Positions 11,413 to 42,168 of a DNA stretch of 64,000 nt are shown piece after piece. Positions within the stretch are counted from its first letter, which is position 1; each line of letters opens with the position of its first letter. The translations under genes and the position numbers were made by a program. The stretch is from a virus (lineage: Duplodnaviria; Heunggongvirae; Uroviricota; Caudoviricetes), in IMG/VR virus record IMGVR_UViG_3300026549_000001, positions 32,001 through 96,000 of that record; one strand, given 5' to 3'. A model generated the notes under the pieces. That model had not been told where the DNA came from, made no database searches, and worked only from the letters and a program-made list of their open reading frames with translations.

Positions 11413-11441
11413 ATTGTATCATATATGGAAGAATTTGTCAA
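11413..11441 (-). promoter_or_regulatory. Sigma-A type promoter
   Basis: TTGACA-17 bp-TACAAT with TG extension. Confidence 0.7.
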
Positions 11442-12674: not shown

Positions 12675-13431
12675 AAGGTCTTTCTAATGTATTAAACATT
12701 CTAATAGGAGTTTGTTCAGAAAAACACCCTGTACCCCCCGCTATGAGCATTGATGTGGAGGGAATAGTAGGATATAAAGAGGGGTTTTTATTTTGGTCGT
12801 TAAGATACCAAGCAATAGGAGATACTTGTTGAGTATTAGTGTTAATACATAAACCTACAGGTATAATGTTCCAAAAGAGGTCATCTTCTTGTTTGAATTT
12901 AGCCATTTTAGGAATAGGTTGCCTTTTCTTACATTCTACTTGAATAACACCTCTGTCAATAAATGTTTTTATATAGAAATAAGAAAAGTGTATGGACTTG
13001 TCACTCATTTCAGTAACAAATTCTTTTTTGTCAACTTCTTTTCCTGAACGGTCATATTCTATGTATATATATTTTCTGTCATAAAATATTACATCTGTGC
13101 CTAATCTTTTTTGTGCGATTTCGAACACCCAATCATCGAATGGAGCTTTTCTCAAGAATAATCCCTTAACAATAAAAGCTAATAAAAGCAATCCAAGAGC
13201 TAAAACACCACAATATAAAATAATGTGTCTGAAAATAGGATGTCCTGTAATATTAGCAGTTTGTTTGACAAAAGTAGAAGCAAATAAAAGAGCGGCTATT
13301 ATAAGAGCAATAATAGACAAGGTGCGTAGGGTTTTGAATACCCTATACATAAACTGATTTCTTGGTTGTATACCTTTGAGAACAACCTCTTCCTGTTTGT
13401 CATTTGCTATATTATCTTTAAAGAGTGCCAT
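12658..13431 (-). CDS. FtsK-like ATPase 1, N-terminal gene: 2 TM helices, ends in half of Walker A plus a 22-aa intein N-fragment (12661-12726)
   Basis: ..SMLIAGGTG/CFSEQTPIRMFNTLERPYDSTM*; CFxxxTPIRM is intein block A. Confidence 0.85.
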   Translation of the reverse strand: MALFKDNIANDKQEEVVLKGIQPRNQFMYRVFKTLRTLSIIALIIAALLFASTFVKQTANITGHPIFRHIILYCGVLALGLLLLAFIVKGLFLRKAPFDDWVFEIAQKRLGTDVIFYDRKYIYIEYDRSGKEVDKKEFVTEMSDKSIHFSYFYIKTFIDRGVIQVECKKRQPIPKMAKFKQEDDLFWNIIPVGLCINTNTQQVSPIAWYLNDQNKNPSLYPTIPSTSMLIAGGTGCFSEQTPIRMFNTLERPYDSTM

Positions 13432-23616: not shown

Positions 23617-24006
23617 TTATATTTCTTCCCATTTTTGGTCTTCTCTCTTGTCTATTTCGGCACTTTCACCATTAAACTCAAAAGTTGTTTTATCATCAGC
23701 AAAAGAGATTTCCTCTGTACCTTCCAATTCATCAAGCAATTCTTCTGTGTTAATTATTTCATCAGAATTATAACCCATAGGTGATAATCCTCTTAATTTA
23801 TAATATTCTTCTATATCTTCAAATTTAGAAAAGAATACTCTTGCAAATAAAGGTGTACCCGCAGACTGAATAACTGCCATACCAGGATATGTATTATCTA
23901 TTGTAGTTGCCAATGTATTATCTAATGCAACTAAACTACTTCCCGCTTCCGTTGCTTTGCCACAAAAACAACGAAATCCACAATTAGAAGTCAAAATTTT
24001 CCCCAC
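23617..24006 (-). CDS. FtsK-like ATPase 2, piece D: 8-aa intein C-tag plus C-terminal extein
   Basis: GTG start with AAGGAGGT RBS; MGKILTSN/CGFRCFCG..SSLVALDNTLA..PG matches the FtsK tail. Confidence 0.78.
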   Translation of the reverse strand: MGKILTSNCGFRCFCGKATEAGSSLVALDNTLATTIDNTYPGMAVIQSAGTPLFARVFFSKFEDIEEYYKLRGLSPMGYNSDEIINTEELLDELEGTEEISFADDKTTFEFNGESAEIDKREDQKWEEI

Positions 24007-24021
24007 AAAAAAGCAACCTCC

Positions 24022-25134
24022 TTAATATAATTTTCCCGCGCCATAAATTGTATGTTTGTCATCTTTATATATAATCATCGGTTCGGGAATTGTAGGTAAC
24101 AAATTATTCTTGTTAAAATCTCCAATAGGATAGTTGTCTGTTCCTTGTAATAAAGATTTTAATAGAGATAGTTGCTTATTAAAATCTTCAAACTCGTATA
24201 TGTGAATAAGTCTAATGCCTTTTTCTCTGCATAATAGACTTTTATTTAAATGTTTATCTATAATAGGACAATGTTCAATGCTATGCCAATGTGTACCATT
24301 ATATTCTATTGCTAACGACAAAGAAGGTATATATAAATCCAACTCATAAGGGGAAATTACTCTTCGTGTATTAGTAAGAATTTCTCCATTATATAATGTT
24401 TCTAAAAGTTGTAATATTCTATTTTCGGCTTCACTTCTTTGAGATTGGCTACTGTACGCTTGTATATCCTTTAGAAAGTCCTTTGATATATAAGTATTTA
24501 CCCCGTCTTTTATTGTAGGTAAATTAAGAGCAAACCAACCCTGTCCATATTCCGCTATAAGTGTTTTCTTGACAATACAATTATGAGTATGCTCAAAAGA
24601 ATGAATGTTTTTTCAACGGGTAATATTTGCTTTTTCCTTGCGGGATTGTTCTTCTGATGTAGTTTTTATACTATGCCATTTTTTATTTCTATTTGATAAT
24701 GTAGCACGAAACTGTTGTTTTTCATCGTCTGAAAGAGCGTTATAACGAGCATAATACTTTTCCCGCAACAATTCTTTGGTGGCTTGTTTTGATTGTTCGC
24801 TTCGTTGAGATAACCCTTGTGATATTCTTTTTCCAAACTCATTACCATAGGTTTCTCTAATGGTAAAAAGTCGTTTCGTATGTGACTGCTGTAATTGTTC
24901 CTCTGTATAATGTTTATTTTGATATGTGGTAGCACAAGATGTAGAACAAAATTTTCTATACCCTTTGGACAAACTTATAAAAGTAGTTGGTTTTCCACAA
25001 ATTAAACACTTACCATCTTCCACATTTATATAAGTATCATAATATTCTTTTGGAATAACATTATGTGTATGGGATAGATGTCGGCTAAATCCTTCAGTTG
25101 TAGTAAACAGTTTGTTACAAAAATGACAAATCAT
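24022..25134 (-). pseudogene. Homing endonuclease family gene interrupted by an in-frame TGA at 24613-24615
   Basis: ORFs 24613-25134 and 24022-24342 share a frame; reading through gives ITR*KNIHSFE..YGQGW as in the paralogs. Confidence 0.75.
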
Positions 25135-26597
25135 TTATCCTTAATCCATAGGTCGCAATTTTCCCCATCAATAATTCTAACATAGTCGGGGCGTTGTTTT
25201 AGCCACCAAGTAACATCAAGCTCTTGATTAGTAACTATAGCATCAAAATCATATTTCTTAAAATAATGGTCTATAATTGCCCCATCTTTATCTTTTCTCA
25301 TTTGCATAAAAATATGAACCGAATCTTCATATCCCATTTCTTTTATATAGGGGTGCTGTCTTGTATCTTGAAACACTTTTATATCATTCCATAATAATAT
25401 ATTTCCAACGGCATATCCATTTAATAGTCTACTTGGTTTATTATTTTTTAGATATTCTACTATGTCAGATGATATATATTCTGATGAAGTGTTTAATACA
25501 TACTTATCCATTGTACTATATGAGTAAACAAATGACAGTAAGCAAAAGATTGTGGATAGTATGCTTGTAGAAATTATAATCCACCATTTATGATGAATTG
25601 CTCTTTTATTATATTCAAGAGGGGCTTTGTCAAACAACTGCTCAATATAGGTATATCCTAAAATCGGATAACAATATACTAATAATGTGCTACTTTTTAT
25701 CGCCTTAAAAGTTAGTACAAATAATATACATAATAAGCCTATATTTATAAAATCTTTTCGGCTGTATTTTCTTTTAGAACAAAACAATACTATTATTAAG
25801 AATAGTGTGCCAATTATCTGTGGAACAAAACTACTCTGAAAAGGTTGCCACTCTGAAATATAAGAGTTGTCAGCCAAAATAGCTTTAAGCATACTTATAA
25901 TAGGAGTATAACCTAATGGATTAACTAACAGCCCTATACTAAATAATAGAATGGAGCAAATTCTATATCCTATATATCTTATAGATATAACTTCTTTATC
26001 TTTATACAAAAGAGCAGATATAAAATCTAATCCAAATTGAGCGCACATAAATCCCAATAATACTATTGCCTGTCCGCAATGAAAATTAGATAGAAATACC
26101 CCTATTAGAAAATAGAATAGTATATTTCTAAAATCAATCTTCTTATTATATAAATATAGTATAATTATAAAACAAAAGGTAGAATACTCTGATGGTCTAT
26201 TTATTGGAGTAGCATATAATAATAAGTGTACTAATAAATATACTCCACCAAATAATACTATATTTTTTGGTTTAACTATTCTAACACTTACATAGAATAA
26301 TATAATACTAAAAACCGCGTGTATAATATAAAAACCATAGATATTAAATATATGCACTACATTATATAATAATACATCAAACAACCATTCTTGTTGATTC
26401 CACTCACTATTTGTTAGCCAAGTAAATGTATTATTTGTGGTTATCGTTCCTGTATTGGTTATTTGTTCTCCAATTTTTATATGCCACAAATAATCATAAT
26501 CATTAGAGTATCTTCCTAATAAGGTAATCCAAAAAATCAAAAAGAAAATAGTGATTATAATATATTTATCTATGCTTTTGGTTTTTAGTAGTTTCAT
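25131..26597 (-). CDS. Multi-TM protein, probable GT-C glycosyltransferase
   Basis: DYLWHIKIG..W..QEWLF, NFH.G, NPLG, ISEWQP and VFQDTR motifs with about 11 TM helices. Confidence 0.65.
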   Translation of the reverse strand: MKLLKTKSIDKYIIITIFFLIFWITLLGRYSNDYDYLWHIKIGEQITNTGTITTNNTFTWLTNSEWNQQEWLFDVLLYNVVHIFNIYGFYIIHAVFSIILFYVSVRIVKPKNIVLFGGVYLLVHLLLYATPINRPSEYSTFCFIIILYLYNKKIDFRNILFYFLIGVFLSNFHCGQAIVLLGFMCAQFGLDFISALLYKDKEVISIRYIGYRICSILLFSIGLLVNPLGYTPIISMLKAILADNSYISEWQPFQSSFVPQIIGTLFLIIVLFCSKRKYSRKDFINIGLLCILFVLTFKAIKSSTLLVYCYPILGYTYIEQLFDKAPLEYNKRAIHHKWWIIISTSILSTIFCLLSFVYSYSTMDKYVLNTSSEYISSDIVEYLKNNKPSRLLNGYAVGNILLWNDIKVFQDTRQHPYIKEMGYEDSVHIFMQMRKDKDGAIIDHYFKKYDFDAIVTNQELDVTWWLKQRPDYVRIIDGENCDLWIKDK

Positions 26598-26643
26598 ACT
26601 ATTCCCGTAAGTGGTTTTTCACCCCGTCTAAAAAATTAAGGTA

Positions 26644-27126
26644 TTACAACAAATCCATAATTACCAAGTCTGTTCCTTGTGAATTCTCATAAATTACATC
26701 ATAATCATCTGCTTTAATAGATAATTCTTGACAGACAAGTTTAATCAAGTCATCTTCTATAATGGTCGTTTTTCCTTTTACATACTCAATTAGTTTTGGA
26801 ACAATAGACTTAAATGCTCCATAAACAACTATACAATCCTTAATATCATCATCGGATTTAAGTTCATTGTATTTCAAACCCGTTTCAAGAGCTTCCAAGT
26901 CAATAATTAACTCGTTGTTATGGTCGATTATACTAAATCTTTCATAAGAAGAAAAATATATAGTAAGGTGGTCTACATTATCAGGCATATCACCGCTAAA
27001 AGTATTTGGTGAAATGTTTATTGTAAAACTTCTGTCTGCTTGCACAAGTTCTTTAAAAATAATATAACTAAAATCATCTAACCCGTTCAAAATGCGGGAT
27101 AAATCATTTACTTTCAAAAATGCCAT
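26644..27126 (-). CDS. Hypothetical protein (C-terminus resembles 51534-52022)
   Basis: DDLIKLV..YDVIYENS versus DDVIKLV..YDIIWDNS. Confidence 0.55.
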   Translation of the reverse strand: MAFLKVNDLSRILNGLDDFSYIIFKELVQADRSFTINISPNTFSGDMPDNVDHLTIYFSSYERFSIIDHNNELIIDLEALETGLKYNELKSDDDIKDCIVVYGAFKSIVPKLIEYVKGKTTIIEDDLIKLVCQELSIKADDYDVIYENSQGTDLVIMDLL

Positions 27127-27129
27127 AAA

Positions 27130-27480
27130 TTAATCTTCTCCATAAATTACAAATAAACTATCTTCTGTGTCAGTAGTAATACATCTTACTGGTTCGGGTT
27201 TAATTTCCTGTATAGATAATAATTTACTACCACAAAAATCGACTGTTTGAAAATACTCAAAATCATCAAAGATGTTAAGAGTATCAGTTATATATTTTAG
27301 TTCGTTTATATAATAATGCCATTGGTGATTCCAAGAGCATTTTACCTTCCCATTATCAAATGTTAAAAGAAACATTCTTAAAGGGAGATGGATAGGAGTA
27401 AGGTCTAATACTGTGTGGGGTTTACCATCATAACCAATAACCTTATCTCCTATTTTTACATCTCGTAGCTTTTTCTTCAA
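27130..27480 (-). CDS. Free-standing Hint core, middle piece of split intein 3 (class 3-like)
   Basis: LRDVKIGDKVIGYDGKP; CSWNHQW block B; EPVRCITTD..LF block F; no block A or G. Confidence 0.85.
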   Translation of the reverse strand: MKKKLRDVKIGDKVIGYDGKPHTVLDLTPIHLPLRMFLLTFDNGKVKCSWNHQWHYYINELKYITDTLNIFDDFEYFQTVDFCGSKLLSIQEIKPEPVRCITTDTEDSLFVIYGED

Positions 27481-27504
27481 GTTATATTTCCCTTCATAAT
27501 TAAA

Positions 27505-27777
27505 TTAGGATAATCCTAATGCAATTCGTGTTATAATGATGGTATCAGCAATTCCTACTGTACCATCGCCATCCATATCAGCCCTCGCTGGCATAAAAAC
27601 ACCGTTGGTAATTCCCAACATAACATAACGCATTGTTGCAATAGCATCAGCAATGGTTACGGCACTATCTCCGTTCACATCTCCCAAAAGAGGAGCGGGG
27701 AGTGTTTCGGCAAAAGCGGGAACTGCAAGAGCCATAATCATAATAGCGACTAAACTGAACACAAGTAATTTCTTCAT
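27505..27777 (-). CDS. Secreted stand-alone type I dockerin
   Basis: Signal peptide plus duplicated GDVNGDSAVTIADA / ADMDGDGTVGIAD. Confidence 0.85.
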   Translation of the reverse strand: MKKLLVFSLVAIMIMALAVPAFAETLPAPLLGDVNGDSAVTIADAIATMRYVMLGITNGVFMPARADMDGDGTVGIADTIIITRIALGLS

Positions 27778-27828
27778 ATAAAAAGATTCTCCTATAAAAT
27801 AATTTTAGTTATAAAGGATATTCTACTG

Positions 27829-28567
27829 CTATTCTTCCAAATAATTCTTTTCTATTTCTGTCCAACAATGTTCAAAAAAATGAATAGCCTTACCAATATC
27901 ATCATCTGCCTCAATTGATGTTTCCGTATTATAGACTTCTTCACCATCATCAGGCATTAACCAATCCATATCATATTCTTTCATATAACTATTATTATAA
28001 GCTACCTTACCACATATACGGTAAGTATCTAATAGGTATTCCCCATCATCTCCCTTGTTTTCAAAGCCATCAACCCAAGCTAATACAACAGCCCAAGTTT
28101 TCCGACCTTGTTTAAGTATAGTTGAATAATATGTTGAAGATGTATCTCTATGTTTTTTAAGAGTATCTATAAAATCTCTTACTTCATTATATACTATCAT
28201 AATATTTCCTCTTTAAATATTCGGCAAACGCAATATCATTTTGTTCCATAAAATAACCCGACTCTAATTGTCCCTCATACCATTTTTGAGCGGTTTCAGC
28301 CAAGTCTTTATCTACCTCTACACCATTAAAATAATCTTCCACTATATGAACTAAATGAAATACACCTAACTGTCTACATTGTTTCAAAAAATTAAAACCG
28401 AATGCTCCTAATTTTGGAAATTTGACAATCCAAGTTTTTTCTTCTTCAGTATACATAGGATAAGATTGTCCGTTAAGCTCCCAAGTCATATTTATTACAG
28501 AATCAATAAGAGATGGATTATTTTGTTGAATAATATTTACTTCTCTCGGTGTTAAGTCTCTACTCAT
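27829..28567 (-). CDS. Two hypothetical proteins (27829-28200 and 28187-28567)
   Basis: ORF track; overlapping and coupled. Confidence 0.55.
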
Positions 28568-28569
28568 AA

Positions 28570-28908
28570 CTATTCTTCTATTTCTACCAAAGTATCAAGG
28601 CTTAAAGGATTTGACCTTAATACTGTGGGTACAATATCTGCTTTTGGTTTCTGTGTAGCTATACTTATATGTATACCCGCACTTCTACCTAACTGTGCTA
28701 TTGATGATAAGATTGATACTATTTCATCTTTTAGCGCATCTTCTTCCTTTGCTTCGGCACTTTTCATACCACTATGCTGTGTCAACTCTGCCAACTCGTC
28801 ACAAATCACCAATAATACTTGTAACTCATCAGAATATATATAATCTACGCAGTTTGCATTAACAGGAATCCAATCCGTACCATTAAGGCAAACTTCCACT
28901 TCTTTCAT
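28570..28908 (-). CDS. FtsK-like ATPase 2, piece C: Walker B region plus a 12-aa intein N-tag (28573-28608)
   Basis: LLVICDELAEL..IAQLGRSAGIHISIATQKP..LRSN/PLSLDTLVEIEE*; likely start ATG 28908. Confidence 0.85.
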   Translation of the reverse strand: MKEVEVCLNGTDWIPVNANCVDYIYSDELQVLLVICDELAELTQHSGMKSAEAKEEDALKDEIVSILSSIAQLGRSAGIHISIATQKPKADIVPTVLRSNPLSLDTLVEIEE

Positions 28909-29308
28909 TACAATACCACCTTTCTTAAAAACAACTACATTCTTAACATAGTTTTTGCTCGTTGTTTCTGTCAATTTGTATATTCCAAACAAATTAAGAT
29001 AGGCATAATCGTTTGTATTATTATAACATAACCCATTATAAAAATCAACATTAGAGGTGTTATAAAAACCGTTACTCTAAAAAAGCAAGTATAACCGCAA
29101 AACTATAAAACTTCATCACTTTTGCGGATATATCATTAGCGTTTTATTCACTCATAAAAGCGAATTAAGTGAATATTCACTCTTTTATTTGGAATATAAA
29201 TAAATCATAAGGTGAAATTACTTTTAGAACATTTATAATAATTTCCCCACTATATCAACACGCATTATTTGAGTGTTGTTTTATAAACATATCGTTCGCG
29301 TTTAACGA

Positions 29309-30525
29309 TTATCGGTCTTGATTGCCTAACTCTATAAGCGGTTCAATAAGGAACTGATGTAAGAAGGAATATCTGTCTTGTACTTCCTTCAAATCCTCAA
29401 GATATTGGTCTAAACAAGTTTCAGATAAAAAGCGTTGTGCAAGTTCTTTATAATCATTTAAAGGAATATTATATTTTTCAAAATCAGAATCAGTCAGTCC
29501 CCAATCCACAACAGATGTTTTATAAGTCCAATAACTAACAAACTCATATTCGGCATATTTGTTTTGCATATAAACAAATATACTTTGTAATATATTAATT
29601 ATTTCATCGGGTAAGCAATGTTGTTTTATAAGAGAACCTATTTCCTCAATATAACAATAATCTTTATACCAATTAGAAAAACACCTCAAAGATTTAATAT
29701 TTCTTAATAAATATTTTCCATCTTGTTTATCCACATAAACAACAGCGTTATGTGCTATGTCAGATGCATAAAACCCCTCATAAAAAACTTGGTTTTTATA
29801 AGCAACTGTTTTTGTTACATCCATATAGATTATTGCTCCCTTGCTGTAATTAAATATAATCCATTCAACTGTGCTTTTACTCTGTCTGGATTTCTTTCAA
29901 GGTCTATATGATAATTGTTAAAATCATCTTCTTTAATTACCACATATTCATTTATTGCATCATTATCAACACGCGCCTTTAGGTCAAATTTAATACCATT
30001 AAACTTACCTTTCTTTATTTGGTCTTGATAAAACAATTCCCACAAGTCGTATTCATCACTACTATCTATCCACCTATTAACTCTATCCATCAACATTTCA
30101 AGAAAGAGTTCATCTTCAATAAAAACATTAACCATATTATAACCTCATTATATTTCTATATCACCATATACTATATAATAATCTTTGGTGGGGTCTAATA
30201 TATAATTACCCCAAGTTCCTTTTATTATATGTGCGTTCTTATCTACGATTTCAGTAATCTTGCCTTTTGTGTCCAACCCATCATTAAATCGCTTATTTAC
30301 AGGGTCTTTAGTAAGGTGAGATGCTAATACTAAAACTGAATCCCCTTTCTGTGGTTCATCTAAATAATTATATTCTACTGTTCTATAAATAGTTTCCGCT
30401 AATAGTACATGATGTTGTAAACATTCTTTACAAACATATTCGTAATCCTCTTGTGGACAAAGGGGGTCAGCCGCAAATACTTCATCCCCTGGAATTAAAG
30501 CTTTTCCGCAAAGATAACAATTCAT
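29309..30525 (-). CDS. Three hypothetical proteins (29309-29824, 29830-30135 and the Zn-finger-like 30148-30525)
   Basis: ORF track; CxxC pairs in the last. Confidence 0.5.
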
Positions 30526-31218
30526 TTAATATATCTCCCAAATACTTTCAAAAACACTTGTAACTGTTATGTCATTAGCTTCTGAAAGCATCTCGTCTAA
30601 TACTTTTATTTTTTCTTCGTTAGTTGGCGCACTTGAACATTTCATCATTCTTGCTTCGTCAAAAGTACCATACGACTGTGTTTTAAAATTAAAATTGATA
30701 GTAGATAATTCAACGCCCTCATATCCTAAATGTTCTGCAATTCCGCGTATCTCTATGTGTATATTATCAATAGCGTTATTGGTAGCTTTTGCTTTAAGAC
30801 TTGCAAAGGTATTTTCTGTTAGAGTAAAATCAATATTTATTCCACCACCTAAATTATTGGTTTCTAACAACAATTCGGCAAAGACTTTTCTATTATCTTC
30901 AAAAGGAAGCTCAATAGAAAAATACCCTGTAATATAATGATATTCCAATTCGTCCTTATAAGTTGTTTTATCGTCTTTCTTAACTTCTACTCTTCTATAT
31001 TTAGCAGACTTTTTATATTCACTAAACTTTAATAGATTTTCTGAATAACCATACTTCGATAACACTCTCGTAATAACTGTCTTAAACTTTGTCAAGTCTT
31101 TACAAAATAAATCTATAAGTCCTTTATCTTGTAATGCCTTTGTAGTAATGGTTAAAAACACCTTACCTAAATTTGCAGGATGTTTAGCTTTTCCTTCACC
31201 ATTCTTAATAATCTTCAT
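30526..31218 (-). CDS. SIMPL/DUF541-like protein
   Basis: G-E-G..P start, FTL..A..NA..A..LG pattern, ends WEI. Confidence 0.55.
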   Translation of the reverse strand: MKIIKNGEGKAKHPANLGKVFLTITTKALQDKGLIDLFCKDLTKFKTVITRVLSKYGYSENLLKFSEYKKSAKYRRVEVKKDDKTTYKDELEYHYITGYFSIELPFEDNRKVFAELLLETNNLGGGINIDFTLTENTFASLKAKATNNAIDNIHIEIRGIAEHLGYEGVELSTINFNFKTQSYGTFDEARMMKCSSAPTNEEKIKVLDEMLSEANDITVTSVFESIWEIY

Positions 31219-31250
31219 AATACTTTACAACATTCTCCCAATTTAATATA

Positions 31251-31721
31251 TTATGTACTATGTAAAAGTTCTACAAGTTCACTTGCTTTCATAGATGTTT
31301 CCTCTCCATCTACTCTTACTTTTATAGTATCATTTTCATTATATTCCCTACCTGTAACATAAACCTTGTCAGTTTTTTTACTTGGCAAATAATCTGTTAA
31401 GGATTTTATTCCCATCTTTGCCATTTCCTTATTTCGCTTATACATACATAATCTTGCAATGCGTAATAATTCAACCGCCTCTTTAACACTATTGGCAACA
31501 CCAACTATTCCGTTCATTCCTTTATAATTAGAATATTCAACTTGCTTAATATCAATCAATCCTAATGCAATCTTATCTCGGTGTTCGATACAATGTATTA
31601 TAAGATTCTGGGTTAAAACGGAGTTATGAGATTTAATTCCATTGGTAATATAAGAGCCTGTATTTGTACTGACACAAAAACAAGGTAGTTTGCCAACAGG
31701 TTCACAAGATAATAGTTTCAT
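31251..31721 (-). CDS. FtsK-like ATPase 2, piece B: 33-aa intein C-fragment (31623-31721) plus extein
   Basis: MKLLSCEPVGKLPCFCVST..IKSHN/SVLTQNLI..LIDIKQVEY..MYKR. Confidence 0.87.
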   Translation of the reverse strand: MKLLSCEPVGKLPCFCVSTNTGSYITNGIKSHNSVLTQNLIIHCIEHRDKIALGLIDIKQVEYSNYKGMNGIVGVANSVKEAVELLRIARLCMYKRNKEMAKMGIKSLTDYLPSKKTDKVYVTGREYNENDTIKVRVDGEETSMKASELVELLHST

Positions 31722-31786
31722 AATTACTTCCTTTCAAGATAATAATATTTCTTTTTAGTGACTAAAAAGAATTTATTCTATCAACC

Positions 31787-33013
31787 TCAAATTATAAGGT
31801 TTACCCGAACAGGGTTTAGTACACACCCAATATCCAATGGTTTTTCAACATCTTGGAATACTTTTCTCATTATTTGATAAGCCCCATTTACATCTGCGTT
31901 TATTAATGTACCATCATTACTTCTAAACAATCCTCTGTTTACTCGTCTTTTTGGGTTATAGTATTCTTTTAAAGGGGGTTCATTATCTAAAAAACTTGTA
32001 CCCGAAGTGTAACTTTCTTCGGATAAAATGAAATTAATACCTTCTTCCTGACATTTATATTTTAATTTTTGTATAAATGAATAGTATGGTATTTGAGCAA
32101 AATTCTTTAGGCGTACCCCCTGTTTTTGATATTTATTGTGTCCAACCACAATAGAGGTAATACCCAAAGAAAGACAATGGTTTACAATATATTTAGAAAC
32201 TCGGTGCAAAAAACAATCTATTTTATCTGCCCTTTTATTTTGCAAACCATATAATAGATGACTATACCCAATATCATTTCCATTTCTATCTAATTCAGCT
32301 TTTACTGAATTAATGCGATAATTGAAGTAGTTATTACAAGATTTTAGACCTTTACCATTTATAATAATTGGTTTATTAAACATATTATCAACAAAGGTTA
32401 CAAAGTTATCTAATCCCAAGTCTATACTACCTATTGCCCCGCATTCATTAATTTGTTCTGAAATATCAATAGTATATATTAATTCCACAATGATTCTTTG
32501 GTTATGGGGTACAAATCTACATTGGTTAAAGTTTACAAGTCTACTATCTTTAATAAATTGTGGTTGAAGTGTAAATCCACACAAAGATTTGCTAAAATGA
32601 ATTAGCCCGTCTTGTTTTAGTCTACAATTTGATTTTGTCAATGAGAATTCAGTTACACCATCTTTTTTCAAATATTTAGGCAGTTGTGGTCTGCCTTTAT
32701 ATTTTGATGGATTATTTTTCCAATCCTTTATAGTAACAAAAAATGATTTCCAATTATCTTCCAAACGGCGAAGAATTTGCTGACTGCCGCTTGATAATTC
32801 TAATTCCCAATAGTCAGGGTATTCTAAATTACTCTTAACTAATTTATCAACCTCGCCATATCTCAACCACTTACCATTTTCAAGAAATTCCTTACGAACA
32901 AGATAATTGCCGTGGTTATATATGTTCTTGGCAATGTGACATTTTTTAAATAAAAGATTGTACCACTTGGATTGTCTATCTATTATATGTTTTTCTGTTC
33001 TTTGCACTAACAC
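31787..33013 (-). mobile_element. tnpB: TnpB (IS200/IS605-superfamily RNA-guided nuclease) with no transposase
   Basis: IDLGLDN, EESYTS and NADVNGA RuvC motifs. Confidence 0.88.
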
Positions 33014-33018
33014 CTATA

Positions 33019-33855
33019 TTATCTCCCCCCATCAATATACTTCCTTCCAAGACAACCCGCACCGTATATAATGTAACCATTTTCATTATAAATAACTTGT
33101 GGTGTTGGTATATCCTTTATTAAATTATTTTTATTAAAATCATCATCAGGGTAGTTATCTATTCCATTAAGAAGATTAAGCAATAAAGAAAGTTGTTTCT
33201 TAAAATCTTCAAATTCGTATATATGGATTAGCCTTATTCCCTTTTCTCTGCATCGTAAGGATTTCATTAAATGATAATCCTCGGAGGTACTATTTTTTGT
33301 ACTGTGCCAAAATAGTCCATTATATTCAATAGCTAATTTAACATCAGGCAAATATATATCTAACTCATACGGGGATATTATTTGTTTTGTATTTTCAATA
33401 ATAGCACCACTATATTGTTTTCTTATAGCCGCTACTATTTTCTTTTCTGTTTTAGAACTTCTATATAGTGTTTTATAGTTTTGTATTAATGGTAATTGAT
33501 TATTAGGTACAAAAATATATTTTTTATAACGCAGAAAATCAATTCTATCTTTTATAGATAGCCAACCTTGCCCGTATTGACTTATAACTTTTTGATAATG
33601 AGTACAATCATTTATTAATTCAAAACGCGCAATATCTTTCTTAATACTTTCAGATAATTGTTTTGTATTTGTAAAAGTGGAATTATTATAACGATTTTGT
33701 TTTGTAGCCATAGATTGCTCCTTGAATCTATCTGTTTCCACATAACTACAAACACCATAGAGTTCTATCATTGTTTATGTAGCTTTCTCTCTGTTATTAT
33801 ATGATGTAGTACCATATAATCTTATTTCTGTTTCTCTGAATTTTTGAGTTATAAA
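33019..33855 (-). pseudogene. 5'-truncated homing endonuclease family gene (intact ORF 33019-33771)
   Basis: Lacks Zn fingers; in-frame TAA two codons upstream of the ATG with family repeat sequence before it. Confidence 0.65.
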
Positions 33856-33879
33856 TGTTCACGAAAAAACAACACTTCA

Positions 33880-34553
33880 TTATTCATTTAGCAGTTTGTT
33901 TATATAGCTTTCGTTTAGCATCAAAGGAAGTCTAAACTCAATATAGACATCTGTTAAATCTTCGGAAGAAAACTCTGCTGTAAGGTCTTCTATATTATAT
34001 GTGCAATTAGCTATAATTTGTTCTGATGGTATATCATCCGCTAAACAGTCTAAAACCTTATCATAATCATCATTGGATAAATTAGTATTGATTGCAACCT
34101 CACCAATATTGTCTACCATATCAAAAGCAGTTATGAGTTCTTCTTCAAGGTTTGGTTGACTAAACATAGAAGTTGCTTGCATTGTAAATGTTAAAATAAT
34201 TTTCATTTATTTCTCCTTCACCCCATTGCATCTAATAAAGTATAAACATCATCGCCTGTTAAATATAATGGAATGTCATACTGTAAAGTTTCATTATTAC
34301 TAAAACACCCTAAAAAACTTAATTCAGAGGCATCGTATGAAAACTTGTGAATCAAGTTATCCATTATTGAAGTGTCTTTCAATACATCATACGCATGAAG
34401 TTTATCAAATTGAATATCACCATAGAAAAACAAACCCTGTGGCTTAAATTTCTTCAAAGCAAGACTATCCTCAACAGCTTTACTTAATGTTGTAATTTTG
34501 TCAAACACTTCATAGGCATTTATAGAGATGCGTAAATAAATTACTAATTTCAT
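33880..34553 (-). CDS. Two small hypothetical proteins, possibly distant paralogs
   Basis: Similar length and pattern (MKIIL/MKLVI..PL.L). Confidence 0.5.
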
Positions 34554-34580
34554 AAAAACCTTCTTTTATCTTTCTTCTTA

Positions 34581-34947
34581 TTATATTATTAACCTACCCA
34601 ATTTTTGATTGTACTTATTGACAGTAATTTGAACTTCATAATTGCGCTGAAACATTGATGGTTCTTTTTTATCCCAAACGGTCTCTCTGCTTCGAGAAAC
34701 AAAATTTGGGATTTCTTTTTTTAGATTTACTGCACCTTTAGTATATAACATATAATACCTCAAATTATAATGGCAGTTTTCCCGCTTCAAGATTATATTT
34801 TGGGACTTCCACCTTTACTTTAATATTTCTTTGAAATCTTGACGGTTCTCTATCAATAAGAGTGTCCTTCTCCCTTACAACAAAGCAAGGTATCTCTTTT
34901 TTGATACTAACCGCACCATGTTTAGTGTAAAGCATATTGTACCTCAC
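34581..34947 (-). CDS. Tandem pair of paralogous ~60-aa proteins
   Basis: RYxMLYTK.GAV..KKEIP.FV.R..EPS.FQRN in both. Confidence 0.7.
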
Positions 34948-34972
34948 TTACAACCATTAGTGTATTGATTTA

Positions 34973-35566
34973 TCAGTCGGACTCCATAGAGAATAGGTCA
35001 GCGACAACCTTCAGGTCTCTACATCTTGTTAAATCCATAGATTGAATTGTAACGGAAATAGTTCTGCTGTCAGATTCAATGTTTACTACATCAAAATATT
35101 TTCCTTCTAATCTGTCCAATGCTTTTCTCCATATATGAGCGGAATATGTACCCATAATAAAGTTATCAATACAATTAAATATAGATATTTTTTGTTTGGC
35201 GTTAATATTTTGCTCGATTACCGCTCGTAAGCTACAAATGACAGGTAACATTTCAGGCGCATACGCATTGGGGTTTTTTACCCATTTTTTATAAAATTCT
35301 TCCAATGCTGTTATACATTCTTCATTATAAGGATAATCTATATTATTCGTTACAAGATAATGCAACCAAGCTCTAAAAAATTCAAACAAATTAGAGGGTT
35401 GACAACTCCAATTTTGTGGCTTATATACAGGATTATCGTTTTGATGGTCTTTTAGATATTGTGGCAGATATGCCCCTTTGACAAAATTCCACCCTGCTCC
35501 ATAACTTTCATTATCTATCATAACTTCCCACACCATAGTTTCTAATATCACATCGAAAGTAAGCAT
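34973..35566 (-). CDS. Hypothetical protein
   Basis: ORF track. Confidence 0.55.
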   Translation of the reverse strand: MLTFDVILETMVWEVMIDNESYGAGWNFVKGAYLPQYLKDHQNDNPVYKPQNWSCQPSNLFEFFRAWLHYLVTNNIDYPYNEECITALEEFYKKWVKNPNAYAPEMLPVICSLRAVIEQNINAKQKISIFNCIDNFIMGTYSAHIWRKALDRLEGKYFDVVNIESDSRTISVTIQSMDLTRCRDLKVVADLFSMESD

Positions 35567-35587
35567 ATCTTAATCCTCTTTAATTAT

Positions 35588-36277
35588 TTATTTTGAATAA
35601 AATACTAATGGCAACATTCCGTCTGAAATTGTCATTACCATATCAGCATTATCATTTTGAGTAGTTATCTCATTTAAAGATAGACTATTTTCTGTAAGGG
35701 AAACATTAAATACTTGTGCTACTGTTTCATCATCTATATTATAAAAAGATAATACATTGTTTTCAAAAGTATATGTTCCATTGTATTCCCATACTATTTC
35801 TTCAAGCAATTCATCTTTTGTTTGTTGTTTAAAAGCATCAAAAGATTCTATTTCTAATACTTCACATAATTTTTCATCTGTGATTTCTTCTCCATCCTCA
35901 ACACCCATTACCGCCATCTGTTTTAGGAAAGCAAGTATTATATCTACATACTTATCCATTGCGGTCATATATGATTCTTTATCCGCTATTCTTACATAAG
36001 TTCCATCTTCATTAAATTTATAACTAATGGTTATATTTATAGGTTCTCCGTCATAAGATGGAAAATCTGCTTCTGCAAGAGAATCCATTAGATTAACAGT
36101 TGTTTGCCAATCCTTAACTATTGTAATAACAGGTTCAGGTGTGTTTGTTGGTGCTTCTGTTGGAGCAACCGTAGGTGTTTCTTTTGGTACGGGTGTTGGA
36201 TTGTTATTGTTAGATGTGCAAGCCAATATTGAAATACACATAATAAAACAAACTATTGCTATGATTATTTTTTTCAC
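35588..36277 (-). CDS. Lipoprotein with Thr/Pro-rich linker
   Basis: ILAC lipobox. Confidence 0.7.
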   Translation of the reverse strand: MKKIIIAIVCFIMCISILACTSNNNNPTPVPKETPTVAPTEAPTNTPEPVITIVKDWQTTVNLMDSLAEADFPSYDGEPINITISYKFNEDGTYVRIADKESYMTAMDKYVDIILAFLKQMAVMGVEDGEEITDEKLCEVLEIESFDAFKQQTKDELLEEIVWEYNGTYTFENNVLSFYNIDDETVAQVFNVSLTENSLSLNEITTQNDNADMVMTISDGMLPLVFYSK

Positions 36278-36308
36278 TTTATAGTTTCCTTTCTTACTTA
36301 TAATATAA

Positions 36309-36782
36309 TCAATCTGGAATTGCTTTCATTTCATAATTCCAAAACTGTAAAATAATATCTATTAAATATGCCTTAATACTTTCTTCTGTTTCATCAAATA
36401 GCCCATCGCATATATCGCCAAAATCGCCTACAAACTCTCCGTTTTTAGTTAATAGAGTCTCACACCAATTATTCTCCCAAATTGTAATATTATATCTATC
36501 AAAATATTCTCCCCAATTTTCTGGGTTTCTAAAAATCTCTACTAATTCTTTTGGAAATTCAGAAGCCCTATAGTAGTTTCTTCCATTATAGGCAACTCGC
36601 ACCTCACCTCGAACATCTATAACAGCCATTTCTTCTTCATTGGAGCATTTCGGTATTTTGTAGGTTAGAGTGACTAATGTTGTTCCACTATCGCAAAGCA
36701 TAGAATCAATACTTGCTTTTTTAATTTCTTCCACATCATATTCAAGATGTACTATTTCTATATCTTCTATGGTAATCTTCAT
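36309..36782 (-). CDS. Hypothetical protein
   Basis: ORF track with RBS. Confidence 0.55.
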   Translation of the reverse strand: MKITIEDIEIVHLEYDVEEIKKASIDSMLCDSGTTLVTLTYKIPKCSNEEEMAVIDVRGEVRVAYNGRNYYRASEFPKELVEIFRNPENWGEYFDRYNITIWENNWCETLLTKNGEFVGDFGDICDGLFDETEESIKAYLIDIILQFWNYEMKAIPD

Positions 36783-36931
36783 TGGTATACTTCCTTATTA
36801 TTAAATAAACTAATTCTCAATACGGTTAAAGATACAACAAATGTATCTATTCGGGAACAGATTGACCTTTCATCCGAAACTACAATTTTCAAAAATTTCA
36901 AAAAATTGAGAAAAATGAAAGTTAAAAATAA

Positions 36932-37141
36932 CCACAATATATAGTGGTTTTATAAAACAGCTAACCACTATATATGGTAGAAAATTAGGTAAAAAACACT
37001 AAAAGTGCCATTTTTGAGCAACTTTTTTACTTTTATGAGTATTTATACATCCTATGCTCGTTTTTGCCCTTTTTTGACTACTGTACTTTTCACCACAATA
37101 TATAGTTATTGTATTTGCTATTTTAATACTATATATTGTGT
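36932..37141. promoter_or_regulatory. Two tandem pairs of NrdR-box-like palindromes
   Basis: 16-mers at 36932, 36965, 37093 and 37126 match acaCwAtATaTwGtgt; 33-bp spacing in both pairs. Confidence 0.65.
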
Positions 37142-37147
37142 AGTAAA

Positions 37148-37483
37148 TTAATCATTAAGATAAATACTTATAATTTTATAGTCACCAAACTCGCCCTCTA
37201 TCCCATAATCATGGTCATAAAAAGGAAGATAATTCCGACTCGCAAAATTGTTTACTCGTTCTTCCGTTACTTCTCTATCTGGGAATATTTGTTTATATTT
37301 TTCTACAATGTCTTCATAAGTTAATATTTGCACTTCTTCAGGAGGGTAAAAGCATTCGTTTGATAACTTTAGACAATTTCTTTCATCTTCTGCCCACTTT
37401 GCATATTGAGATTTAGTCATTACTACAAGAGAGTGGGTTGATGAACTATTAGTTTCAAATGTTCCTATACGCACATTTATCAT
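37148..37483 (-). CDS. FETNSSSTH-motif phage-type protein
   Basis: Paralog of 50898-51185. Confidence 0.65.
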   Translation of the reverse strand: MINVRIGTFETNSSSTHSLVVMTKSQYAKWAEDERNCLKLSNECFYPPEEVQILTYEDIVEKYKQIFPDREVTEERVNNFASRNYLPFYDHDYGIEGEFGDYKIISIYLND

Positions 37484-38045
37484 TTTTTTTCATCCTTATT
37501 TTTCTTATTTGCTTATACGCTTATTTTTTTCTTATATTCTCATTATACATTTTTTTTCTTATATAATAATATTATTATTTATGCTTCATACTATATTCAT
37601 TATTCATTATTCATTAGTTAATCTATTGATATTATTATATATAGTACCCCAATAATAGGGGGGAGATGTTTTACTTAAACAAAAATACTTACAATTTACA
37701 CAGACAAAAAGGAATAGAAAAAAGGCGAATTTGCAAAAAATTTCACACCATAATATTCTATAATAATATTCTTATAACATCACAATTGGCATATTCACTT
37801 CGTTCATATACACAATTGATGATGTTCAATGTTCTTCGCTATGCTTGAACATTGGTAAAGTTATAATTTATTATTTATATTTATTTATACTATACCAATA
37901 ATAGGGGGGAATTCTTTTTCCTTTATTTATAAGCATTTTTTCTATGTATCTATGTAAACTATGTCAAAGTTGTGTCATTTGTGTCAAACCCGTGAAGATT
38001 GTAGCGAAAATATGTATATATTAAAGTCACCTATACTATGAAGTA
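37484..38045. repeat. AT-rich non-coding region with direct repeats; candidate origin
   Basis: CCAATAATAGGGGGGA at 37649 and 37895; tandem TATTCAT; clustered TGTCA. Confidence 0.4.
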
Positions 38046-38808
38046 TTATCTTTCCCCAGTCCACTTGGAAACTAATATCTTATGGTTAGGTGAATGCGGA
38101 AAATAATATGTGAAATTTGATGGTGTAAGCTCTCCACCAAAGGTTGACTTGTGTTTAGTTGTACTGTGTCTATAAGGGTTATATCTTACATATTTCTTTC
38201 GACTATTAAGAAGATTATCATAGTCGTAATTGTCTAACTCAATCATTTCTTCCCAAGTTTTAATATTCATAATAATTAGTCGGTTGTACGATAATAGTAA
38301 GACAGTTCTTCACCTTTTAGGGTGGAGGTTGCATAATTGGCTGTACTATTATACAGTTTATTATAAAGCTCTGCATAGGTTTCATTGACTTCATTATGTT
38401 CCCAAATTTTCCAATTAAGAGCCATAACAAGTTCGGTTAAAACTTTATAGTCTGTTTTTGCATAAGCCATTGCGTTTTTATGTGTGTCCTCTATTGCCTT
38501 AATACCAAAAGCATCGGCAATAGAAAAATCCATATAAAAAGTTGTTATGGGCTTATACCCTGTCATAGCTTCTATATTCCAATCTTTATATTTCATTATA
38601 GATAACCCCCATCTACTAAATCTTTAATATCTATTTCTCCTAAATAAGTATCAAATTCATTTACTATTCTCAAATGAACTATATCCCCGTTTTGTAAGAT
38701 TTCATATAGTCCAAATTTTTTCAAAAAATCTGCATATATTTGCGGATTCTCCTCAATCCAACACATAAGCCTGTCAATATCTATATCTTTAGGTATATTG
38801 TGCATCAT
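38046..38808 (-). CDS. Three small hypothetical proteins
   Basis: ORF track (38046-38270, 38276-38596, 38596-38808). Confidence 0.55.
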
Positions 38809-38821
38809 ATATATCCCTCAT

Positions 38822-39349
38822 TTATATACTTAATTCTCCAAAAGTATTTAGCAAGAAAGCCACTCCTTCTAATGGAACCCAGTAATGAACATCATCAATT
38901 TTTTGGCTTTCTTCTTCTATGGTAAATCTTTTAACAAAGACTTCCCTGTATGTTCCATCCTTAAATGTTATTTGATAACATTCAAAATGGTCTTGACTAA
39001 TATCTATAACTTCCTGAAAAGCAGAATCATCAATACCACCAATTACATAAGAATAAACTAATTTTTTTTGTAAATCATCTACATATCCTAATATTTCACA
39101 AGATATATTTTCTCTCAAAGGAATTTTCCCCTGTGAACAATAATGCTCCACATAATCTTTTGCTTCTTGGGGAAACGCAGAAATATCTACCTCTATAAGA
39201 TGGTCTTTTGAAGCTATCAATGATTTTTCTATTCCATCATTATCTATATAAACTAACTTATAGCAATCGTATAGATGTGTTTGATGGCGTTGTGTAACCT
39301 CTGAACCATCTTTAAATTTATGCTTTCTTTTAACATCTTTCCATTTCAT
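38822..39349 (-). CDS. Free-standing Hint core, middle piece of split intein 2
   Basis: MKWKDVK..DGSEVTQRH..CYKL..KSLIASKDHLI is N2 plus block B (H); no block A or G; likely start ATG 39349. Confidence 0.68.
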   Translation of the reverse strand: MKWKDVKRKHKFKDGSEVTQRHQTHLYDCYKLVYIDNDGIEKSLIASKDHLIEVDISAFPQEAKDYVEHYCSQGKIPLRENISCEILGYVDDLQKKLVYSYVIGGIDDSAFQEVIDISQDHFECYQITFKDGTYREVFVKRFTIEEESQKIDDVHYWVPLEGVAFLLNTFGELSI

Positions 39350-39450
39350 AAAAAAACATTCCTTCAATTGTGTATATTTCAAATCTCCTTGCATATAATA
39401 ATACCAACAGCGAGAAAAACGCTTAATAATTATAAAGGAGATTTTATAGT

Positions 39451-39657
39451 ATGAAAATCAATGGTATTCACACGGAGCAGGGACAAATCCTCTATTATAG
39501 GCTTGACAATGGGAGAATTGTTACACCCAATGAGTGCATAGACCTTATACGAGAGGGTTCTATTGAAAATGGCACATTGAGCAAGAGTAAGAAAGGATTG
39601 GTGTTCATTAAGAATAAGCACCGTAACTCTAAACTTACTGATTTTGAAGCCTTTTAA
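39451..39657 (+). CDS. DUF3892-like small protein; only convincing plus-strand gene
   Basis: AAAGGAG RBS; YRLDNG..T..E.IDLI..G.I; followed by a hairpin. Confidence 0.6.
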   Translation: MKINGIHTEQGQILYYRLDNGRIVTPNECIDLIREGSIENGTLSKSKKGLVFIKNKHRNSKLTDFEAF

Positions 39658-39660
39658 GTA

Positions 39661-39684
39661 TAAGGGGGAAAACGCTCCCCCTTA
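39661..39684. terminator. Terminator between convergent genes
   Basis: taagggg...cccctta hairpin. Confidence 0.65.
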
Positions 39685-39697
39685 TTTTTATATGTAA

Positions 39698-40849
39698 TTA
39701 TTGTTGTTCTCCACGCACAAACACTTTCCATTCAGTTGCAAACGGAGTTACACAAGTTGCGTGAAATATAACATCGTTAAACTGTTTGCGTAATTTATAA
39801 TATATCGGGTTTGGGGAATCGGTTTGTCCATATAAACCTGTTTCGTATTCTGTATCGGATAAAGCAACAAACCCATGCTTTTTAAGAATATCCTCTGATA
39901 AAAACACATTTAATCTCTCACACGGAGCTTCTAACAAATATGCTATATATACATCGGCATCCTTAACCGCACAGTCCGAGCAATATATTTCACCCTCTGT
40001 CGGCTCGAAGTAATTTCTTCTCCAGTCAGCCATATACATTGGGGTAATACGCCTACACCCATCGCAAATATAAGCCTCGTCTGAATAATAAAAAGCATCA
40101 GCTATATAATATATAAAGGCACATTGACTTTTTAATTTGGTATCATAATCTTCTTGTGTGATATAAGAATTAGCTAATAATATTTCTCCTATTTTTGAAT
40201 TAACTTGTTCCATATCTTCTACAGATTGAAATAACATTGCCATTTGTCCATAGCTGTCTTTCCTATATTCATAATAACAATTTGTGGCTTCTTGTAATTC
40301 TTTTAATACAGTAGCTACCATTTATTACCTCTTTTAAGAAATAGATGCAGTTATAGTGTCTGCCCAACTTACTACGGAGTCAAAGTCAGATTCTTCAAGG
40401 TCATCGTATTCGTCTACTGTTAATCCGATAACATAGGTAATAGAACCCGTAGGAACATCATGAGAAGATTCACACAACTTTATACATTTGTTAGTATTGG
40501 ATATTACGGAAAAACTAACCTCATAGCCTCTCTCAAAGGCTTTTCCAATTGTGTCCACTATTTTATATCCACTTGCACCGTTCCATCTGCAACCGTGAGC
40601 CATAACAAGATAATGGGGAAATTTATCTATGAGTGTTTCTACATAATATTCAAACTCATCTTTCATAAATTCGCTACTATCCCAATGAACATATTTATCG
40701 GGTATGTCAAACTTATAAATAGTGGCAAGGTCAACAGACATACCATCTTCTACATCATCATACCCAATATCAGCAAACATCTTTTTTACATTTTCATCAT
40801 CCCCGTTTTCTACATATACATAAGTAAACATATCAAACAAGTTATCCAT
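39698..40849 (-). CDS. Two hypothetical proteins (39698-40321 and 40334-40849)
   Basis: ORF track. Confidence 0.55.
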
Positions 40850-40866
40850 AACAATTCTTCTCCTAA

Positions 40867-42168
40867 TTATTCAATAATTTGTTCTATATAAATGGCTTTA
40901 CCTCCACCCGTATTACGAGTATAGAGGGCTTTATATGGATATATATTTCCACCACTCCATAATGGCTCTTGTGTGTCGGTAATTAAAAATAAATGATTTT
41001 CGGAATTAACCTTGATACATCTTACTGGCTCAATAGACACTTCATCTTTTGCTATTAATCCATAACTCTCTAATATATTGTTGGTGCTTCCAAGAACTCT
41101 GTCTGTGTATAATTTCAATTCTTCTGCGGAAGTTTCAGCATACCCTACATTTAGTTTGCGTTTATTTTTAAAGGTTTCAGCAGATTTTAATTCTTTGGGG
41201 AATTTATGTATTTTATCAGAAATTACATTTATTGTATTCAGACCTGATGCAAAGGTAAGACTATAAACTTTATCGGGAATTAGTATATCATGTACTTCCA
41301 CAACCTTGACTGGTTTATTGTTTATATCAAATACCATATCGCCCACTTCAATAGTAGCCATTGTTTTATATCCTTTTGTAGTAGGAATAACAGTATTTAA
41401 TCCTAATGGCGCACCACTAATAAGACTTTGTGGCTGTCGAGGTAAAGTAGTATCTTCAGGAATATAATTACCTTTTTCATCTTTATATTGACTATGGTAT
41501 CTTCTACTTTTAGGAACAGCATCAATTACCCAAGACACTTCACCTTTACCAGAAATACCCAATGGCATCTCTCTAAAGTGTTTTAACCAACTACCCGCCC
41601 AACGAGCCATATTCGGGGGTTTATCGTTTCCTACAAAGGTCATATATCTTTCTTCAAGATGTAACTCATATCCCCAAGTGAAATTTGGTAAGAAAGAATT
41701 AAGCTGTTGAAGAATAATAGATAATACTTTTTCATCAAATGAAGTAGGTTCAACTTCTACATCTATTTTATTGATATTACCATACTTATAGCCTAACTTG
41801 AAAGGTACTTTATTATAATCTAACCCCTCACCTTTCTTGTCAACCATTTTTTGTAGGATTTCATATACTTGTTGAATCTCTTTTCTTTGTTCTTCAACTT
41901 TAGATTTTTTGATAGTCATAAAGACCATCATAATAATAAGGGAAATAACAGCGTAGCCTAATACAATACCCCAATAAGCACTTTTTAGAGGACTTATTTT
42001 AGGAACTAATATTTGAGCAATTATCCCCACAAGAAAAAGAACAGCTAAAATAATACTATCTCTTTTTGAAAAAGAATAGCTTTCTTCCACTTCGTCAGAA
42101 ATGCCTAATATTTTATTAGCGGCAAATTGTGATATTGCTACTATTATAAAATATATTAGTATAAACAC
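40867..42168 (-). CDS. FtsK-like ATPase 2, piece A: TM N-terminus, cis mini-intein, TGGGK, then a 9-aa intein N-tag (40870-40896)
   Basis: QSLISGA/[intein]/TGGGK/AIYIEQIIE*. Confidence 0.85.
   Translation of the reverse strand: MFILIYFIIVAISQFAANKILGISDEVEESYSFSKRDSIILAVLFLVGIIAQILVPKISPLKSAYWGIVLGYAVISLIIMMVFMTIKKSKVEEQRKEIQQVYEILQKMVDKKGEGLDYNKVPFKLGYKYGNINKIDVEVEPTSFDEKVLSIILQQLNSFLPNFTWGYELHLEERYMTFVGNDKPPNMARWAGSWLKHFREMPLGISGKGEVSWVIDAVPKSRRYHSQYKDEKGNYIPEDTTLPRQPQSLISGAPLGLNTVIPTTKGYKTMATIEVGDMVFDINNKPVKVVEVHDILIPDKVYSLTFASGLNTINVISDKIHKFPKELKSAETFKNKRKLNVGYAETSAEELKLYTDRVLGSTNNILESYGLIAKDEVSIEPVRCIKVNSENHLFLITDTQEPLWSGGNIYPYKALYTRNTGGGKAIYIEQIIE
40912..41409 (-). mobile_element. Cis mini-intein (166 aa, class 3-like)
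   Basis: PLGLNTVIPT..TIEVGDMVFD; SDKIHKF; EPVRCIKV; YTRN/T. Confidence 0.85.

What the first reader, a model, noticed from the sequence alone, without database searches (positions are those of the whole stretch)
23617..42168. One FtsK-like ATPase encoded by four extein genes and two helper genes across 18.5 kb
Pieces A (40867-42168), B (31251-31721), C (28570-28908) and D (23617-24006) follow FtsK motif order: TM, Walker A, IDxKxVE, Walker B, GRSAGIH..ATQ, tail. More than 20 unrelated genes separate them. All pieces are open and have plausible RBSs. Predicted products are A+B (~381 aa) and C+D (~221 aa). Standard annotation would call these unrelated hypotheticals.
Basis: partly seen in the sequence, partly recalled or inferred. 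Interest (0 to 1): 0.88.

Follow-up and report, generated by a model that had tools for sequence, protein, structure and literature searches.

The report
Two natural three-piece inteins rebuild ATPase
A giant mobile DNA from cattle gut encodes one DNA-pumping motor protein as six scattered genes, and two stand-alone helper proteins appear to stitch the pieces together by gripping 8- to 33-residue tags, a three-part protein-splicing layout so far reported only for lab-made inteins.

Summary
Confirmed. An FtsK-like ATPase of a 250-kb circular bovine-gut element is encoded by four extein genes (A-D) and two extein-free intein-core genes (M1 38822-39349, M2 27130-27480).

A+B are joined by a three-piece intein (9-aa tag, 175-aa core, 33-aa C-piece). 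C+D are joined by a three-piece class 3 intein (12-aa tag, 116-aa core carrying the catalytic Cys, 8-aa tag). A also holds a cis intein. The B|C break has no intein.

Relatives show the uninterrupted protein, contiguous intein 3, each single cut of it, and natural intein-free genes of 380-381 and 220-221 aa that match the predicted products. Both inteins model as Hint folds, with the cuts in turns or at the usual split site. The pieces are under purifying selection, while the endonuclease gene at one cut carries a stop. RNA runs show a neighbouring intron spliced but no RNA joint between M2 and D.

Splicing itself is inferred, not shown. I found no natural three-piece intein in the papers searched. 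This scan noted the same layout in other genomes.

The parts
41410..42168 (-). Piece A, N-extein (253 aa): two membrane segments, linker, first half of Walker A
   Evidence: 49% identical to uninterrupted L033 protein; RBS before GTG
40912..41409 (-). Intein 1: 166-aa cis mini-intein in A, Pro start, block-F Cys, ends Thr-Arg-Asn, Thr+1; class 3-like, Phe in place of the Trp
   Evidence: Present or absent at this exact site in relatives (P0023 vs P0021); aligns with intein 3
40897..40911 (-). 5-residue micro-extein TGGGK (middle of Walker A)
40867..40896 (-). N-tag of intein 2 (9 aa, Ala start) and stop
   Evidence: Same tag ends A in L002, L006, L007, L008, L020, L035, L039
38822..39349 (-). 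M1: free-standing middle of intein 2 (175 aa; block-B His, about 70-aa insertion), no extein
   Evidence: Fused to B's C-piece in P0011-14, P0018, P0022-28; free-standing in L002, L004, L006, L058; the fused form models as a Hint fold lacking the first strands
31623..31721 (-). C-piece of intein 2 (33 aa; conserved block-F Cys, His-Asn end, Ser+1)
31251..31622 (-). Piece B extein (123 aa): Ser of Walker A, IDxK motif, first half of a family-specific insertion
   Evidence: natural A+B genes of 380-381 aa end at the same place (P0020, P0021, P0025, P0027)
28609..28908 (-). Piece C extein (100 aa): rest of insertion, Walker B, Arg-finger motif, ATQ
   Evidence: Pfam FtsK_SpoIIIE above cut-off; natural C+D genes of 220-221 aa start at the same place
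28570..28608 (-). N-tag of intein 3 (12 aa, Pro start) and stop
   Evidence: Same tag ends P0011, P0019, P0022, L015, L017; continues into a whole intein in P0026
27130..27480 (-). M2: free-standing core of class 3 intein 3 (116 aa; block-B His and Trp, block-F Cys), no extein
   Evidence: His, Trp and Cys invariant in 18 relatives; contiguous form matches class 3 DnaB inteins, E 9e-9
23983..24006 (-). C-tag of intein 3 (8 aa, MGKILTSN; Cys+1)
   Evidence: Near-identical 8-9-aa starts in L030, P0040, P0058; strong RBS
23617..23982 (-). Piece D extein (121 aa): C-terminal strands and acidic tail
   Evidence: 52-61% identical to relatives
24022..25134 (-). Zinc-finger/Vsr-like endonuclease gene with one in-frame stop at about 24613, directly upstream of D; likely maker of the second cut in intein 3
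   Evidence: Best match in the genome (45%, E 1e-98; next 1e-56) of the intact endonuclease that sits at the same cut in L030
33019..33771 (-). N-terminally short endonuclease gene of the same family, one gene upstream of B; possible relic of the M1|B cut (weak)
   Evidence: 47% to the endonuclease at that cut in L002, but not its best match

Best explanation
The ATPase is rebuilt at the protein level. SHOWN by sequence, homology and models: the six genes hold complementary, non-overlapping parts of one FtsK-like protein and of two Hint-fold inteins, each intein cut twice. INFERRED: (1) intein 1 splices out of A in cis. (2) A's 9-aa tag, M1 and B's 33-aa piece assemble a Hint domain; the block-F Cys on B attacks the Lys-Ala bond, Ser+1 takes over the N-extein, Asn cyclises, and Walker A is restored (381 aa). 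(3) C's 12-aa tag, M2 and D's 8-aa tag assemble; the block-F Cys of the free M2 protein takes up the C extein as a thioester and passes it to Cys+1 of D (221 aa). (4) The two products associate without a covalent bond, at a break inside a family-specific insertion. The product is most likely a membrane-anchored DNA translocase or coupling protein of the element's conjugation-like machinery. Origin: endonuclease genes inserted into the intein coding sequences at positions where a break is tolerated; other genes later filled the gaps and some endonucleases decayed.
For: Uninterrupted and intein-free forms exist (P0029, L033). Intein 3 occurs contiguous (L010-L013, L019-L023), cut only after the N-tag (L008, L015, L017), cut only before the C-tag (L030, L045), and cut twice (window). 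Intein 2 occurs as two pieces (L007, L008, L019, L020, L035, L039) and as three pieces in L002/L004, L006 and the window, with free M1 and B also in L058. Natural genes of the predicted product sizes exist. Models: M1+C-piece pLDDT 87, about 27 intein/Hint structures lead the list (best Z 10.5, rmsd 2.0, 101 aligned), mostly aligned from residue 16-20 of the solved inteins, i.e. the gap the N-tag fills. Contiguous intein 3 pLDDT 92, top match class 3 DnaB intein 6bs8, E 9e-9; both cuts fall in turns between strands. dN/dS 0.19-0.44 for exteins, M1, M2 and the C-piece where dS was not saturated. No other gene in the genome can supply these middles. RNA runs show the neighbouring FtsK2 intron spliced (8051-9413, absent from DNA runs) but no joint between M2 and D. 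Engineered inteins tolerate 11-12-aa N-pieces and 6-aa C-pieces (PMC3620165) and three-way splits (10.1101/2023.01.30.526203).
Against: No splicing assay or peptide evidence. The doubly cut intein 3 was seen only in this genome and its identical copies, so M2's selection since the second cut is not measured; dN/dS values span deep branches with dS near saturation. D's tag has Ser where most relatives have the penultimate His (Arg, Lys, Gln and Ser also occur). Intein 2 lacks the Trp and usually the Thr of the class 3 triplet and was never seen contiguous. Many engineered short-tag splits failed to splice (PMC3620165). RNA evidence is contigs from one sample and covers directly only the M2-D junction.
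Confidence: 0.82

Rival explanations
1. The intein fragments no longer splice and act only as non-covalent clamps that hold the ATPase pieces together.
For: The B|C break already works without an intein in many relatives. D's tag lacks the penultimate His.
Against: Intein 2 sits between the Lys and Ser of Walker A, where an unspliced Hint domain should destroy the P-loop (inference). The catalytic His, Cys, Asn and +1 nucleophile are kept in all pieces.
Confidence: 0.07
2. The gene is a decaying pseudogene broken up by endonuclease and gene insertions; one or both doubly cut inteins are dead.
For: The endonuclease upstream of D is itself broken. A second FtsK-like paralog exists in the window. 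Double cut of intein 3 seen in one lineage only.
Against: All six ORFs are open, the extein genes have RBSs, and the new starts match those of independent relatives. dN/dS well below 1. Three-piece intein 2 recurs in lineages only 44-61% identical in M1.
Confidence: 0.07
3. The pieces are joined at RNA or DNA level (giant or trans-acting introns, or rearrangement), so that ordinary one- or two-piece inteins are translated.
For: This family carries group I introns in the same genes (L002, L008, FtsK2).
Against: In L002 the endonuclease fills the M1-B gap to within 15 bases, leaving no room for an intron core. Each downstream piece begins with its own start codon. No M2-D joint in RNA runs that do show a spliced intron; contig L041, which by its length and position is record 15 of RNA run X2, runs unbroken across B, C, M2 and D.
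Confidence: 0.04

Closest known systems
Engineered three-piece split inteins (Ssp and Rma DnaB, Npu DnaE, gp41-1; Weis et al., 10.1101/2023.01.30.526203)
   Same: N-, middle and C-fragments, with an extein-free middle piece.
   Different: Here natural, encoded kilobases apart, class 3 or class 3-like. That paper says three-piece inteins had not been shown in nature. Intein 3 combines a 12-aa and an 8-aa tag, so nearly the whole domain is the free piece.
Fractured genes (Dassa et al. 2009, PMC2677866)
   Same: [quoted passage not shown]
   Different: There each intein is in two parts. Here two inteins are each in three parts, the gaps hold up to 13 unrelated genes, and the host is an FtsK-like ATPase.
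AceL NrdHF, first natural split class 3 intein (Hoffmann et al. 2020, PMC7891396)
   Same: Internal block-F Cys as nucleophile; split; deviations from the WCT triplet tolerated.
   Different: Two pieces. In intein 3 here the catalytic Cys lies on a protein that carries no extein.
Engineered S1 and S11 atypical split inteins (Lin et al. 2013, PMC3620165)
   Same: Very short N-piece (11-12 aa) or C-piece (6 aa), similar in size to the tags here.
   Different: Made in the lab, one cut at a time.
FtsK/SpoIIIE-family translocases and conjugative coupling proteins (PDB 2iuu; 6o1w)
   Same: Membrane anchor plus RecA-fold ATPase motifs; best PDB sequence matches of intact P0029 (E 7e-12 and 5e-10).
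   Different: Far below NCBIfam cut-offs for FtsK, EssC or TraB; has a family-specific insertion and acidic tail.

Membership tests
Intein (Hint fold) | Hint fold | tested here: met
   Models of the fused or contiguous relatives of inteins 2 and 3 match solved inteins; the window's own separate pieces were not modelled with support
Intein (Hint fold) | Precise insertion in a host protein, absent in alleles, with Asn end and Ser/Thr/Cys +1 | tested here: met
   Intein-free alleles at all three sites
Intein (Hint fold) | Protein splicing activity | not testable with these tools
   Needs expression or proteomics
Class 3 intein (intein 3) | No N-terminal nucleophile; Trp-Cys-Thr triplet | tested here: met
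   Pro start on C; Trp and Cys on M2, invariant; Thr on D's tag
Class 3 intein (intein 2) | No N-terminal nucleophile and Cys at block F position 4 | tested here: met
   Ala start; the Cys is kept in every row that covers it; definition as used in PMC7891396
Class 3 intein (intein 2) | Trp and Thr of the triplet | tested here: not met
   Leu/Ile/Phe for Trp, Ser/His/Asn for Thr; filed as class 3-like only
Natural (two-piece) split intein | Exactly two fragments, each fused to an extein | tested here: not met
   A third, extein-free gene carries block B in both cases
Fractured gene (Dassa 2009) | Pieces in original order and orientation at one locus | tested here: met
   A, M1, B, C, M2, D in order on one strand
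Fractured gene (Dassa 2009) | Free-standing endonuclease gene at the break | tested here: inconclusive
   Met in L002, L007, L008, L030; in the window only a broken copy at one cut and a short copy near another
FtsK/SpoIIIE-like ATPase | Walker A, Walker B, Arg-finger and Gln motifs in order | tested here: met
   after in-silico removal of inteins
DNA translocase FtsK (NCBIfam equivalog) | Whole-protein score above cut-off | tested here: not met
   48.8 vs 1566 bits for P0029
Tailed phage | Terminase, capsid, portal genes | tested here: inconclusive
   For the one protein whose alignment range was shown, the PHROG terminase hits cover its intein region; only 25 of 88 families were displayed

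The most novel reading that the evidence does not exclude
M2 is a natural stand-alone protein ligase: an extein-free Hint core that holds the catalytic Cys, joins two proteins through 12- and 8-residue tags, and releases the spent tags to work again, so that its expression gates assembly of the DNA-transfer motor.
Probability: 0.15. Interest if true: 0.95.

Novelty: new variant of a known kind. Interest (0 to 1): 0.86.

Why it matters
It would answer an open question stated in the intein literature: whether inteins split into more than two pieces exist in nature. The relatives record the steps (whole, one cut, other cut, both cuts), extending the fractured-gene model. Intein 3 needs only short, synthesisable tags on both partners, which engineers have sought, and evolution has already tuned it. 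It also shows that annotation misses such genes: M1, M2 and D have no hit above cut-off. The claim can be tested with three small genes in E. coli.

Tried and rejected
Complex prediction of C-tail, D-head and M2 gave no verdict (score 0.23, mark 0.32); not used either way.

Pfam and NCBIfam do not recognise M1 or D, and M2 only weakly. Foldseek gave only weak intein rows for M1+C-piece; the wide structural search was needed.

Rfam found nothing in the window at E 0.1, although an intron is demonstrably spliced, so that blank says nothing. Promoter and terminator scans were at chance level.

No relatives in the plasmid collection, only distant FtsK matches in the phage collection, none in GTDB genomes. 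No Terminase_6N match in the genome; absence is not proof. No stand-alone M2 homolog other than itself. No viral-contig relative of the FtsK2 middle piece.

The weak Shiga toxin B hit on B (E 0.03-0.05, far below cut-off) is treated as chance. Runs X4-X11 hold small shares and are not used for habitat. Paper searches found no natural three-piece intein; the library lacks most subscription journals.

Full report
Setting. The window is part of a 250,568-bp record with terminal repeats, held almost completely over the tested stretch by bovine-gut runs. It encodes its own replication enzymes and VirB4-, VirD4- and PilT-like ATPases; these three, GyrB and PolA carry cis inteins. I could not show phage structural genes, so I call it a giant mobile element.

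Observation. A, B, C and D are open minus-strand ORFs at the stated places. They tile an uninterrupted 612-aa relative in order. Removing the intein parts gives 381 and 221 aa, and natural intein-free genes of 380-381 aa (P0020, P0021, P0025, P0027) and 220-221 aa (L002, P0041) exist. Other records carry the same DNA, colinear.

Three inteins and one plain break. Intein 1 is a 166-aa cis element inside Walker A. Five residues later A ends in a 9-aa tag. M1 (175 aa) is the middle of that intein, and B starts with its last 33 aa. M1 and B are one protein in many relatives. That fused form folds as a Hint domain missing its first strands. C ends in a 12-aa tag, M2 (116 aa) follows 1.1 kb later, and D starts with 8 aa ending in Asn before Cys. 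Together these align end to end with the contiguous intein of P0026, whose model matches class 3 DnaB inteins and has both cuts in turns between strands. The B|C break has no intein and is shared by several relatives.

Evolutionary series. Intein 3 is whole in L010-L013 and L019-L023, cut after the N-tag in L008, L015 and L017, cut before the C-tag in L030 and L045, and cut at both sites here. About 40 of 65 distant representatives of D begin inside this intein (my count), so splitting is common in the family. Intein 2 is always cut after the N-tag in what I retrieved. It is cut again, at the same place as here, in L002/L004, L006 and L058. Zinc-finger/Vsr-like endonuclease genes sit at the cuts in L002, L007, L008 and L030. 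The gene upstream of D is the best match of the L030 endonuclease and carries an in-frame stop. This fits the fractured-gene route (PMC2677866), repeated twice per intein, with later gene insertions.

Are the pieces alive? dN/dS against L006, L002, L008 and L044 is 0.19-0.44 where it could be computed; these are rough values on deep branches. Catalytic His, Trp and Cys of M2 are invariant. The genome holds no other candidate middles; a genome-wide profile search found only M1, M2 and one more free core belonging to a paralog.

RNA-level rival. In two RNA runs of one sample the FtsK2 intron appears spliced (8051 to 9413), and that joint is absent from the DNA runs, so splicing is detectable. 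No joint links M2 and D. Contig L041, matching record 15 of run X2 in length and place, is unbroken over B, C, M2 and D. These are contigs, so rare forms could be missed.

Mechanism. Class 3 inteins use an internal block-F Cys for the first step (PMC7891396). In intein 3 that Cys, the block-B His and the Trp lie on M2, so the extein-free protein would transiently carry the C extein. In intein 2 the Cys lies on B's piece and M1 supplies the His and most of the fold; it lacks the Trp and Thr, so it is class 3-like only. These steps are inferred. Whether M2 turns over is unknown; spent tags probably stay bound. The ATPase's role is least certain: closest structures are FtsK and a conjugative coupling protein, and the gene context suggests DNA transfer.

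Novelty. Three-piece inteins have been engineered, and a 2023 preprint states none had been shown in nature. My searches found no later report. The chemistry is known; the genetic layout is new. Notes from this scan report the same layout in other genomes. I read them after forming this view, did not check their loci, and do not count them as support.

Noticed in passing
window 3691-13431 (-): A second FtsK-like gene, matching an intact 663-aa relative in L033, holds a third three-piece intein of class 1 type: 22-aa N-tag at the end of 12658-13431, free core 9741-10232, C-piece starting near 9603. It is further interrupted by introns; the one at 8052-9412 is spliced in RNA runs and restores the frame, while no RNA joint links the intein pieces. 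No contiguous relative of this intein was found.
   Followed up: partly
window 40897-40911: Two inteins five residues apart in one Walker A. Split intein 2 goes with cis intein 1 in six of the seven distinct relatives listed, the exception being L039.
   Followed up: partly
genome C1 7156-9258 and 11026-12540 (L047): DNA polymerase A is in two genes; the first ends in a roughly 70-aa non-polymerase tail with no intein end motif recognised.
   Followed up: no
genome C1 147271-148056 and 153539-154651 (L051): NAD-dependent DNA ligase is in separate genes about 5 kb apart, without recognised intein parts.
   Followed up: no
window 49864-50790 (-): A third, degenerate FtsK-like paralog without an intact Walker A.
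   Followed up: no
L058 2-478: An intein 1-like ORF ends without the terminal Asn, micro-extein or N-tag, upstream of a free M1 and B; possibly a further cut or decay.
   Followed up: partly
L039 2872-10369: A distant relative has the ATPase in four genes, with a cell-wall-anchored protein gene between the first two pieces and a 75-aa C-piece on D.
   Followed up: no
window 31787-33013 (-): TnpB/IS605-type gene directly upstream of B.
   Followed up: no
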